This document shows positions 3,001-6,000 of a stretch of DNA of 64,000 nucleotides, in pieces (position 1 is the first letter of the stretch; the number at the start of each line of letters is the position of its first letter). The stretch is taken from NCBI RefSeq assembly GCF_057098645.1, contig NZ_CM169472.1. One strand, given 5' to 3'. Position numbers: made by a program.

Positions 3001-6000
3001 ATCTTTTTTGTCAGCGACAATTTACAGAAGAAAATCGCGGAAACCGCTTCAGACAAGCCTCCGCAAGGAAAATTAGTCACGACTGAAAGCATTGGCTGGG
3101 CGACAAAAAAAGTTCCAGGATTAATCCTAAATTTACTTAATGATACAAATTAGAGTGAATTTTTAGCCCGGAAAGTTGTCTGGTTGCGTGAGAGGATGCG
3201 CTTACCGGACGCATAATAAACCCCATAGCGTTACCTTCATTTGCCGCATCAACAAGTTCAGCATGCTCTTCTTCAGTCAAATCATCTGCCAACCAACCGA
3301 TCACCACACTGTAATTGCCCGTGCGTAAAGCGCGAACCATTGACTCTACGGTGTGGCAAGGGGAGAGCTGGCTAATCTGCATTACTTTCGTTAAGGGTAG
3401 CCCAGATGCCTGAACCCATTCCCGACTCAGTTTTTGTTGCGGTGTTAACCAGAGTTGCCAGCGCGATTGCTGACCGAGTTGCTGTAACAATGGCAACAGT
3501 AGAAGTTGCGTCATCATGGGCTGATCTTCGCGATAGACAACTTCACTGATAAGCCCGGCTGTAGTGTTTTCCGTAGAGACACGCGCAATTTTACTTGCTG
3601 CGGATGAGAACGACGAAGAACGATGTGCATAGCCTGAAGTGTACATAATCAATCCAGCCCCTGTGAGTTACTGTATGGATGTACAGTGCATCCAGTGACA
3701 ACAAAGATCAACCCTATTTTCGGAAAGAGCCTCGCAAATTTTGTCGTTGGTGACGGGAAAACATAAATTAATCTTGCCCCTTAAGAATAAGTTGCCTATT
3801 TTCGTAGTTAACGGATCCGTTAATGTGAATCATTCTTTTATGTTATGATTTTAAAAGGAATTTTATGAAAAGCCTCTCCTATAAGCGGATCTATAAATCA
3901 CAAGAATACCTGGCAACGTTGGGCACAATTGAATACCGATCATTGTTTGGTAGTTACAGCCTGACCGTTGACGACACGGTGTTTGCGATGGTTTCTGATG
4001 GTGAGTTGTATCTTCGGGCTTGTGAGCAAAGTGCACAGTACTGTGTAAAACATCCGCCTGTCTGGCTGACATATAAAAAGTGTGGCCGATCCGTTACCCT
4101 CAATTACTATCGGGTTGATGAAAGTCTATGGCGAAATCAACTGAAGCTGGTGCGTCTGTCGAAATATTCTCTCGATGCAGCGCTGAAAGAGAAAAGCACG
4201 CGCAATACCCGGGAAAGACTGAAAGATTTGCCCAATATGTCTTTTCATCTGGAAGCGATTCTCGGGGAGGTGGGGATTAAGGATGTACGGGCGTTACGTA
4301 TACTTGGGGCAAAAATGTGTTGGTTGCGACTGCGGCAGCAAAACAGTCTGGTGACAGAAAAGATTCTGTTTATGCTTGAAGGTGCCATTATCGGCATTCA
4401 TGAAGCTGCGCTCCCGGTGGCACGCCGCCAGGAGCTTGCAGAATGGGCTGACTCTCTTACGCCGAAACAGGAGTTTCCTGCGGAACTTGAGTAATCTGGC
4501 GTTGCAGACGACCAATCTCAGGCAGTAATGCAATCAATAACCCAACTTGTTGTACGACCAGAGGTTCTTTGCTGTCTGCCCGTGGTTCAAGTTGCTGCAT
4601 CCGCTGTTTCAGGCCAGCTAATGCCTGATTGACGCGTTCTTCATCAGCAGGTTGATGATGTAACGCGTCATCAACATAGCAAACTGCGTCATCAAGAAAC
4701 GCCAGAATTTCAGGATTAGTTAACTGCTCCCGGTGAGCACCGAGGGCTGAGATATAGCTGGTAAACGTATGGTTAAGGCACAGCAACCGAAACGCGGCTT
4801 CGCGAATTTGCGGGGTAACGTTCGGTTCGCTGGACATATTTGATACCACCGACGCCAGTTCAGCATCACGGTTGTGTGCATCGCGGCGGGCAATACGATA
4901 CGCCAGACGGTTATCACGCCCCTGATGGTATTGCTCCAGTATGGCATCGAGATAGCGACAGTTGGCCTCTGTGGCGCGTTCGAGCATTCGCGGCAGATTG
5001 CGAAACTTCCAGTCAGGCCAGATGTAGCTCACTGCCGCCCACGCAATGGCACAACCAATCAGCGTATCGATTACGCGAGGTAACGCTACTTCAAAACCTT
5101 CACCCAGCAAGTTAAAACACAGTAGCACCAAAAGTGTGATGAACATCGTTGCATGGGCATATTGCACGTTACGGAAGGCAAAAAAGAGCACGCCGGTAAT
5201 AACCAGTAGCACCAGCTGCCCTTCCAGTGACGGTACAAACCACAGCACAGGAATGCCAATGGCGATACCTACCAGCGTACCAATAATCCTTAACTTCAGG
5301 CGGTGGCGCGTGGCGTTATAGTTTGGCTGGCAGACAAACAAACTTGTCAGCAAGATCCAATACCCGTGATGCATTCCGGTTATTTGAATGATGGCGTAGC
5401 CGAAGCACAACACCAGCGACATTCTTACCGCATGACGGAAGAGGGCGGATTCCGGCGTGAAGTGACGGCTAAGACGCAGCCAGATATCACTCAATCCGTG
5501 CGGGCTGTCATCAGCGAGCTCATTTTCGTCATTATTATGGGGCAGTGCCTGGGCCTGTTCTGATTCAATTGTTGCCAGTTGGGCATCAATGGCGCGTAAA
5601 TTGTTCAGCAAAAATCCCAGTGTTTTGAGTAAATCGGCAGGCGCGCCGTTATCGCGCATCCGCTCCAGGGCAGCATCAATATGCGTAAAAGCGCGCTCAA
5701 AATGCGGATCATGTTGATAAGGCTGACGCAGCAAAATACAGCGTGACAGTTGCTGGCACGCCTGGCCCTGCATCGACATCAGCCGCTGAAAACGGAACAG
5801 CACGTCGCTGTGGCGAAAATGTTCACGCAATGTTTGATACTGAATATGAGAAGAGCTGGCACGCTCGTGAATATCCTGTGCGACAAAGTAATAATGCAGC
5901 GTGCGACGCGTTCCCCGTTGACCACGATCGCCACGTAAGCGGGTCAGCAGCGATAGTTTCGTCTGATTCAATGTCGCCATCAGCTGACCGTTGGCGAGAG

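What the first reader, a model, noticed from the sequence alone, without database searches (positions are those of the whole stretch)
4457..4494. Convergent 38-nt overlap of sxy and yccS 3' ends
The two ORFs overlap at their 3' ends, so their transcripts must be antisense to each other over the terminal codons. This could couple competence-regulator expression to yccS.
Basis: seen in the sequence. Interest (0 to 1): 0.2.

Follow-up and report, generated by a model that had tools for sequence, protein, structure and literature searches.

The report
Known sxy–yccS tail-to-tail gene overlap
The 38-base overlap between the ends of the E. coli genes sxy and yccS is real but already annotated and published. 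It looks like a by-product of drifting stop codons; the only new detail is a conserved RNA hairpin inside sxy that probably ends or protects the yccS transcript.

Summary
The segment is present in 5425 of 5426 complete E. coli genomes.

It is not new. E. coli has 58-75 convergent gene overlaps, 75% of its convergent operons produce complementary 3' ends, and sxy-yccS is listed among 165 published convergent "excludons".

In 80 Enterobacteriaceae loci the genes overlap in 76, but the length ranges from 4 to 80 nt; 38 nt occurs only in Escherichia. The conserved protein cores sit a near-constant 49 nt apart. Both stops drift within that stretch, which evolves at a synonymous-like rate and lies outside the Pfam domains. 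A random 49-nt junction gives an overlap in 83% of simulations. So the overlap itself looks like a by-product.

One thing was not in the finding: a conserved GC-rich hairpin at 4410-4435 on the yccS strand, 21 nt past the yccS stop, inside sxy codons 182-191. It is supported by strong synonymous-site constraint and by compensatory changes, and it has no U-tract. I infer that it is the 3'-end stem-loop of the yccFS mRNA. Regulatory coupling of sxy to yccS remains untested.

The parts
3865..4494 (+). sxy (tfoX) CDS, 209 aa, CRP-S regulon co-activator. The TfoX_C domain ends at W194 (codon ends at 4446).
   Evidence: ORF and RefSeq annotation; Pfam TfoX_N 14-106, TfoX_C 116-194.
4457..6619 (-). 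yccS CDS, 720 aa, FUSC-like inner-membrane protein. Its conserved core ends at Q708 (lowest base of that codon is 4496).
   Evidence: Pfam matches end by residue 685; conserved LLPEIxRLQxQ motif.
6629..7075 (-). yccF CDS, the upstream partner of yccS in the yccFS operon.
   Evidence: PMC4161252 names the yccF-yccS operon.
4457..4494 (.). The 38-nt stretch that codes on both strands: Sxy residues 198-209 plus stop, and YccS residues 709(part)-720 plus stop.
4447..4495 (.). The 49-nt junction between the two conserved protein cores. It encodes both non-conserved tails, and the stop codons move within it.
   Evidence: 49 nt in 48 of 75 loci, range 39-50; mean column identity 0.54, against 0.51 and 0.44 at flanking third positions and 0.75-0.89 at first and second positions.
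4410..4435 (-). Conserved GC-rich stem-loop, 5'-GCUCCUGGCGGCGUGCCACCGGGAGC-3' on the yccS strand (the extended stem spans 4441->4406). It starts 21 nt after the yccS stop and lies inside sxy codons 182-191. No U-tract follows. Inferred to be the 3'-end or termination stem-loop of the yccFS mRNA.
   Evidence: dG -22.4 kcal/mol, z -2.55; 95.3% of cells paired, 4 pairs with compensatory changes, 0/500 shuffles; synonymous constraint, 0/200,000 permutations; - strand pairs better than + strand; degraded where another hairpin follows the yccS stop.
4250..4400 (-). C-rich, G-poor stretch on the - strand just downstream of the hairpin. A candidate Rho-loading (rut) region; this is inference only.
   Evidence: + strand GC skew +0.15 to +0.42 across 4200-4449; pattern described in PMC6061677.
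3137..3646 (-). sulA, the next gene downstream on the yccS strand beyond sxy and its promoter region. Context only: yccFS read-through would run into it.

Best explanation
sxy and yccS form a compact tail-to-tail gene pair with no intergenic DNA. Their conserved cores end about 49 nt apart. Each reading frame runs on into this weakly constrained stretch until it meets a stop codon, and the stops drift by point mutation. The overlap (38 nt in Escherichia, 4-80 nt elsewhere) is therefore a passive by-product, not a selected element (shown). No terminator lies between the genes, so each transcript must end inside the other gene and the mRNAs are complementary at their 3' ends (shown logically, and reported from RNA-seq by others). 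On the yccS strand, a conserved stable hairpin without a U-tract sits 21 nt past the yccS stop, inside sxy codons 182-191, and is followed by C-rich RNA. Its existence and conservation are shown. I infer that it is the stem-loop defining and protecting the 3' end of a Rho-terminated (or collision-terminated) yccFS mRNA. It would also help prevent read-through across the sxy promoter into sulA. Any effect on Sxy levels, by transcriptional interference or RNase III cleavage of the duplex, is possible but unproven.
For: - The overlap and its annotation are confirmed.
- In 80 Enterobacteriaceae loci, 76 overlap. Lengths are 4, 7, 11, 14, 16, 20, 23, 32, 35, 38, 41, 44, 47 and 80 nt; 38 nt occurs only in Escherichia.
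- The core-to-core spacer is 49 nt in 48 of 75 loci, range 39-50.
- The junction evolves at a synonymous-like rate, and both tails lie outside the Pfam domains.
- Random junction sequence gives an overlap in 83% of simulations.
- Literature baseline: 58-75 convergent overlaps in E. coli, attributed to stop-codon movement (PMC2174442, PMC4161906). 276 of 370 convergent operons overlap at the transcript level (PMC4161252). The pair is listed as an excludon (PMC12288877).
- Hairpin stability: dG -22.4 kcal/mol, z -2.55.
- Hairpin codon usage: L183 is CTC in 70/74, P184 is CCG in 73/74, R188 is CGC in 67/74, codon 189 is CAG or CGG in 72/74, E190 is GAG in 67/74. Mean third-position identity is 0.91 against 0.45 for 175 background codons, with 0 of 200,000 permutations reaching it.
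- It is the most constrained 8-codon window in sxy. The last 150 yccS codons have no equivalent cluster.
- Pairing: 95.3% of cells paired, and 4 of 10 pairs show compensatory changes.
- The - strand pairs better than the + strand in 53 sequences, against 2 the other way.
- 70 of 76 loci keep the hairpin at -15 kcal/mol or stronger. Of the six that do not, four (L051, L052, L053, L064) have a different stable hairpin just after the yccS stop; L055 shows none and L075 keeps a weakened version of the same stem.
- No U-tract follows the stem, and C-rich RNA lies downstream. This matches the stem-loops at Rho-dependent 3' ends described in PMC6061677.
Against: - No 3'-end mapping for yccS or sxy was available. 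The held supplements of Adams 2021 do not mention either gene, and those of Dar & Sorek, Conway and ExcludonFinder are not held.
- The stem arms encode the conserved residues ALP and RRQEL, so part of the conservation is due to protein coding.
- The strand asymmetry rests largely on one Q/R codon and is not phylogenetically corrected.
- The two loci where the genes are separated (L049, L051) are sister lineages, so they count as about one independent event.
- Outside Enterobacteriaceae the hairpin is not general: L085 and L087 have none, L089 has a weak one, and L086 has a different one.
- The association between a weak canonical hairpin and an alternative one is only nominally significant (Fisher p = 0.03, uncorrected).
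Confidence: 0.6

Rival explanations
1. Functional excludon. The convergent overlap is selected because it couples the two genes. Transcription of yccFS into sxy, and the reverse, would cause transcriptional interference or RNase III cleavage of the duplex, so that yccFS activity lowers Sxy and competence-gene expression.
For: The pair is in the published E. coli convergent excludon list. Excludon pairs as a class show higher synteny and more mutually exclusive single-cell expression than controls. The tail-to-tail arrangement with at most 50 nt between cores is kept in 75 of 76 measured loci and in more distant Enterobacterales. No terminator lies between the genes.
Against: I found no pair-specific expression, RNase III or mutant data. 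The overlapping sequence and its length are not conserved. Transcript overlap occurs at 75% of convergent operons, so it is not evidence of regulation in itself. Conserved synteny of the whole ycbZ-matP-ompA-sulA-sxy-yccS-yccF-helD block needs no coupling to explain it.
Confidence: 0.15
2. The overlap is a neutral by-product, and the conserved inverted repeat in sxy codons 182-191 has nothing to do with yccS. It would act instead in the sxy mRNA (stability, a translation pause or a processing site) or as a protein-binding DNA palindrome.
For: An inverted repeat forms a hairpin on both strands; for E. coli the + strand version is -18.1 against -18.6 kcal/mol. The element lies inside sxy, whose expression is known to be tightly controlled. 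The strand asymmetry depends mainly on one amino-acid-changing position.
Against: In the sxy mRNA the stem lies in translated sequence, 57 nt before the stop. On the - strand it is untranslated and is the first stable structure after the yccS stop. G-U pairs on the - strand correspond to A-C mismatches on the + strand in most sequences. In several lineages the stem decays where yccS has another hairpin after its stop, although Sxy is retained there.
Confidence: 0.2
3. Annotation artefact: one of the two reading frames really ends earlier, so there is no true overlap.
For: Long convergent overlaps in databases are often 3'-extension errors (PMC2478687). Both tails are poorly conserved.
Against: Stop codons are unambiguous. 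The same ends occur in O145, K-12 and cryptic Escherichia clades, and the segment is at least 99% identical in 5417 of 5425 genomes. No frameshift or in-frame stop lies upstream. Orthologues in most genera also overlap. At 38 nt the overlap is below the 60-nt range where artefacts dominate.
Confidence: 0.02

Closest known systems
Convergent (tail-to-tail) overlapping genes produced by stop-codon movement (Rogozin 2002; Lillo & Krakauer 2007, PMC2174442; Palleja 2008, PMC2478687; Huvet & Stumpf 2014, PMC4161906)
   Same: Two real genes on opposite strands share their 3' ends. The phase is 123:132, the commonest for convergent overlaps. Overlap length changes between species in steps of 3 nt as stops move. 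The overlap lies in non-conserved C-terminal tails.
   Different: Nothing essential differs. At 38 nt it is longer than the commonest 4-nt class, but it is one of 58-75 such pairs in E. coli.
Convergent excludons (ExcludonFinder, PMC12288877) and overlapping convergent operons (Conway 2014, PMC4161252)
   Same: The transcripts of neighbouring convergent genes overlap at their 3' ends. This exact pair is in the published list, and the termination signal probably lies inside the neighbour's transcription unit.
   Different: The defining functional outcome, mutually exclusive expression or RNase III processing, has not been shown for this pair. Here the coding sequences overlap as well, not only the UTRs.
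[quoted passage not shown]
   Same: A stable GC-rich stem-loop with no U-tract shortly after the stop codon, followed by C-rich RNA.
   Different: The stem-loop is embedded in the coding sequence of the opposing gene and constrains that gene's synonymous sites. Neither the 3' end nor Rho dependence has been mapped for yccFS.
Classical bidirectional intrinsic terminator between convergent genes, for example yccU/hspQ in this window (11088-11121)
   Same: A palindromic GC-rich hairpin placed at the junction of a convergent gene pair.
   Different: The yccU/hspQ element sits in a 44-nt intergenic gap with an A-run and a T-run on either side. The sxy/yccS hairpin has no flanking A or T tracts and lies inside a CDS.

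Membership tests
Convergent overlapping protein-coding gene pair | Both partners are genuine conserved protein-coding genes. | tested here: met
   Pfam TfoX_N/TfoX_C and FUSC-like/FUSC_2 domains; orthologues in 80 Enterobacteriaceae loci and beyond.
Convergent overlapping protein-coding gene pair | The genes lie on opposite strands and their 3' ends share at least 1 nt, defined by unambiguous stop codons. | tested here: met
   4457..4494, 38 nt.
Convergent overlapping protein-coding gene pair | The overlap arises and varies through stop-codon movement in weakly constrained tails. | tested here: met
   Fixed 49-nt junction with tail lengths of 6-26 and 2-15 aa; within the dominant 49-nt-spacer group overlap lengths differ in steps of 3 nt.
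Excludon (convergent) | The transcripts of the two neighbouring genes overlap in vivo. | not testable with these tools
   Reported by others: PMC12288877 Table 1 and PMC4161252. It also follows logically from the CDS overlap.
Excludon (convergent) | Expression of one gene represses the other, through mutually exclusive expression, transcriptional interference or RNase III processing. | not testable with these tools
   No pair-specific data found.
Intrinsic (Rho-independent) terminator | A GC-rich stem-loop. | tested here: met
   Stem of 8 bp, one mismatch, then 2 bp; extended stem -22.4 kcal/mol.
Intrinsic (Rho-independent) terminator | A U-tract directly after the stem. | tested here: not met
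   The tail after the extended stem is CUUCAUGAAUGC, and no terminator-like site was reported at 4380-4500 on either strand.
Protective stem-loop at a Rho-dependent 3' end (Dar & Sorek class) | A stable stem-loop without a U-tract, in untranslated RNA shortly after the stop codon. | tested here: met
   Starts 21 nt after the yccS stop in E. coli and 12-49 nt after it in other genera.
Protective stem-loop at a Rho-dependent 3' end (Dar & Sorek class) | A C-rich, G-poor rut region immediately downstream. | tested here: inconclusive
   The - strand is C-rich across about 4200-4400 (+ strand GC skew up to +0.42), but this is composition only.
Protective stem-loop at a Rho-dependent 3' end (Dar & Sorek class) | A steady-state RNA 3' end mapped just after the stem, with read-through increased by bicyclomycin. 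| not testable with these tools
   No entry for yccS or sxy in the held supplements.
Conserved structured RNA element | Covariation and synonymous-site constraint beyond what protein coding explains. | tested here: met
   with the caveat that relatedness of the sequences is not fully controlled.
Rfam families | A match to a curated covariance model at the junction. | tested here: not met
   No hit near 4400-4500 at E-values up to 1.

The most novel reading that the evidence does not exclude
The hairpin conserved across Enterobacteriaceae inside sxy codons 182-191 is the termination or 3'-end-protecting stem-loop of the opposing yccFS mRNA. If so, the coding sequence of the competence co-activator is shaped at synonymous sites by its neighbour's transcript end, and every mature yccFS mRNA carries at least about 85 nt antisense to sxy. 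The same element would shield the sxy promoter and sulA from read-through, and it could set a ceiling on Sxy expression.
Probability: 0.45. Interest if true: 0.4.

Novelty: already known. Interest (0 to 1): 0.18.

Why it matters
As submitted, the finding matters little. It is an annotated example of a common genome feature and is already catalogued as an excludon.

It has modest value as a clean worked example of how such overlaps arise: fixed cores, a 49-nt neutral junction and wandering stops.

The embedded hairpin adds something further. It shows that a neighbour's transcript-end signal can impose strong synonymous constraint on a regulator's coding sequence. E. coli Sxy is notoriously poorly expressed, so the hairpin offers a concrete, mutable handle for testing whether convergent yccFS transcription limits competence-gene induction.

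Tried and rejected
- **Rfam scan of 1-12000 at E-values up to 1:** nothing at the junction.
- **Consensus terminator and promoter scans:** no terminator-like site in or beside the overlap.
- **Folding 141-nt windows around the overlap on both strands:** not more stable than shuffles (z +0.52 and -1.16). Only the focused 38-nt stem is.
- **A matching hairpin for sxy inside yccS:** no synonymous-constraint cluster in the last 150 yccS codons, and the best + strand hairpin is only -8.2 kcal/mol.
- **First automatic overlap estimates:** these contained artefacts. tblastn ran through stops or picked spurious HSPs in L014, L016, L043 and L078. I corrected them by anchoring on conserved motifs.
- **Published 3'-end maps:** the Adams 2021 supplements do not mention sxy or yccS. 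The Dar & Sorek, Conway and ExcludonFinder supplements are not held, and Ju 2019 is not held.
- **A second word-indexed protein search:** it did not reach beyond Enterobacteriaceae. The exhaustive profile search was needed to obtain outgroups.
- **Functional role for the Sxy tail:** Sondberg 2019 (PMC6728893) tests only a 1-122 truncation.
- **Dcm/Vsr site explanation for the conserved CCWGG in the stem:** rejected, because 29 of 74 sequences carry CCGGG instead.
- **Annotation artefact:** rejected (see rival explanations).

Full report
**1.

The window is E. coli; 3700-4800 is 100% identical to O145 strain RM9872. The ORF listing gives sxy at 3865..4494 (+, 209 aa) and yccS at 4457..6619 (-, 720 aa), sharing 38 nt. 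RefSeq annotates the same ends in O145 and in K-12 MG1655, and the two strains are identical across this stretch. The segment is present in 5425 of 5426 complete E. coli genomes, at 99% identity or more in 5417. A 3'-3' overlap is fixed by stop codons, so start-codon choice cannot produce it.

**2. It is already known and belongs to a common class.**

- Lillo & Krakauer counted 58 convergent overlaps in E. coli, and Huvet & Stumpf counted 75. Both attribute such overlaps to stop-codon movement.
- The phase here (1:1, 2:3, 3:2) is the commonest for convergent overlaps of 5 nt or more.
- Conway et al. found that 276 of 370 convergent operons generate complementary 3' ends averaging 286 nt. [quoted passage not shown]
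- ExcludonFinder (2025) lists sxy-yccS among 165 convergent excludons seen in at least half of 58 MG1655 transcriptomes.
- This same window holds a second convergent overlap, yccX/tusE, of 4 nt. It also holds a textbook contrast: yccU/hspQ, with a 15-bp bidirectional terminator in a 44-nt gap.

**3. What the overlap is.**

I fetched 80 Enterobacteriaceae loci using a Sxy alignment and anchored both gene ends on conserved motifs.

- The genes are tail-to-tail in all 80 loci and overlap in 76.
- The overlap length varies: 4, 7, 11, 14, 16, 20, 23, 32, 35, 38, 41, 44, 47 and 80 nt. The 38-nt state occurs only in Escherichia.
- The conserved cores end at Sxy W194, which is exactly the end of the Pfam TfoX_C match, and at YccS Q708. 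They lie 49 nt apart in 48 of 75 loci, range 39-50.
- Both C-terminal tails are unalignable between genera.
- The 49-nt junction has a mean pairwise column identity of 0.54. That matches flanking third codon positions (0.51 and 0.44) and is far below first and second positions (0.75-0.89).
- Replacing the junction with random sequence gives an overlap in 83% of 20,000 simulations.

So the overlap is what a tight junction with wandering stops produces by default. The 38 nt themselves show no sign of selection.

**4.

Folding the - strand just past the yccS stop showed the same GC-rich hairpin in 16 of 16 genera tested.

*Position and stability.* In the window it lies at 4435->4410, 5'-GCUCCUGGCGGCGUGCCACCGGGAGC-3'. 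The extended stem (4441->4406) has dG -22.4 kcal/mol and z -2.55. It starts 21 nt after the yccS stop and lies inside sxy codons 182-191.

*Synonymous constraint.*
- The codons forming the stem arms are almost fixed at synonymous sites: L183 CTC 70/74, P184 CCG 73/74, R188 CGC 67/74, codon 189 CAG or CGG 72/74, E190 GAG 67/74.
- Their mean third-position identity is 0.91, against 0.45 for 175 other conserved codons of sxy and yccS. None of 200,000 random draws reached it.
- It is the most constrained 8-codon window in sxy. The last 150 yccS codons have nothing comparable.

*Pairing.* On a 75-sequence alignment, 95.3% of cells pair, and 4 of 10 pairs show compensatory changes in 14 cells. No shuffle out of 500 reached the observed percentage paired, covariation score or number of cells changed on both sides.

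*Strand.* The - strand pairs better than the + strand (95.3% against 86.9%). It has more pairs in 53 sequences, against 2 the other way, because G-U pairs on the - strand are A-C mismatches on the + strand.

*Replacement.* 70 of 76 loci keep the stem at -15 kcal/mol or stronger. Where it is weak, another hairpin often follows the yccS stop:
- L052 and L064 have a different stable stem.
- L053 has one with a T-run.
- In L049 and L051 insertions separate the genes. There each gene has its own hairpin after its stop, and the stem inside sxy has decayed.
- L055 shows no alternative, and L075 keeps a weakened version of the same stem.

**5. Mechanism.**

*Shown:* a conserved stem-loop exists on the yccS strand. 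It has no U-tract and lies just past the yccS stop. The - strand downstream of it is C-rich.

[quoted passage not shown] I therefore propose three things:
- It defines and protects the yccFS mRNA 3' end.
- Mature yccFS mRNA is consequently antisense to at least about 85 nt of sxy.
- Termination here also keeps yccFS transcription out of the sxy promoter and out of sulA and ompA, which lie downstream on the same strand.

Collision-assisted termination at a stem-loop, as described by Wang et al., is an alternative route. sxy itself has no recognisable terminator, so it presumably reads into yccS antisense RNA until Rho or a collision stops it.

**6. Limits.**

- I had no 3'-end data for this locus.
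- The stem arms encode conserved residues, and the asymmetry and replacement arguments are not phylogenetically corrected.
- L049 and L051 are sister lineages and count as about one event.
- In more distant Enterobacterales the synteny is kept but the hairpin is not general: L085 and L087 have none, L089 has a weak one, and L086 has a different perfect 12-bp stem.
- Nothing here tests whether yccFS transcription affects Sxy.

**7. Verdict.**

The feature is already annotated and published, so interest is low. The embedded hairpin is a modest lead, apparently not described in the papers I could search, and worth one 3'-end mapping experiment.

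Noticed in passing
window 3880-3906 (sxy codons 6-14): A second cluster of synonymous-site constraint in sxy. Third positions of Y10 and E14 are invariant, and those of Y6 and R8 are strongly conserved, across 73 sequences. 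This could reflect a translation-initiation-region or 5' mRNA structure constraint.
   Followed up: no
window 13066-13069: yccX (+, 12791-13069) and tusE (-, 13066-13395) also overlap tail-to-tail, by 4 nt. The pair is also in the published excludon list. So two convergent CDS overlaps lie within 9 kb.
   Followed up: partly
window 11088-11121: The convergent pair yccU/hspQ has a 15-bp perfect palindromic terminator flanked by A and T runs in its 44-nt gap. It also drew weak Rfam hits on both strands at 11076-11133. This is the classical bidirectional-terminator architecture that sxy/yccS lacks.
   Followed up: partly
window about 14553-62900: A lambdoid prophage lies next to yccA, with its integrase at 14553-15572. 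It carries two IS3 copies (19603-20816 on the - strand, 35890-37103 on the + strand), tRNA-Ile, Arg and Arg genes at 30599-30848, a prophage sodC at 54277-54804, the effector gene tccP2 at 60828-62003 and an espV pseudogene at 62449-62841, ahead of tRNA-Ser and hyaA.
   Followed up: no
L051 4616-6901 (Superficieibacter electus); L049 4625-4873: These are the only loci where sxy and yccS are separated. L051 has about 2.3 kb inserted, carrying two - strand ORFs of 200 aa and 425 aa (the latter looks like a membrane protein). There sxy gains a canonical intrinsic terminator and yccS gains its own hairpin. L049 has a 249-nt spacer with one strong hairpin per gene.
   Followed up: partly
L086 4024-4051: In a more distant Enterobacterales genome (GCA_002345795.1), a different perfect 12-bp hairpin (CTGGCCAGCACTTCCTGGTGCTGGCCAG, -23.5 kcal/mol) lies on the yccS strand inside the 3' part of the sxy CDS, 74 nt after the yccS stop. 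This may be an independent origin of the same arrangement.
   Followed up: no
window 3647-3864 and 3137-3646: Conway 2014 reports an antisense transcription unit over sulA that switches on in stationary phase, and sulA-ompA co-transcription. Its relation to + strand transcription starting near sxy, or to yccFS read-through, was not examined.
   Followed up: no
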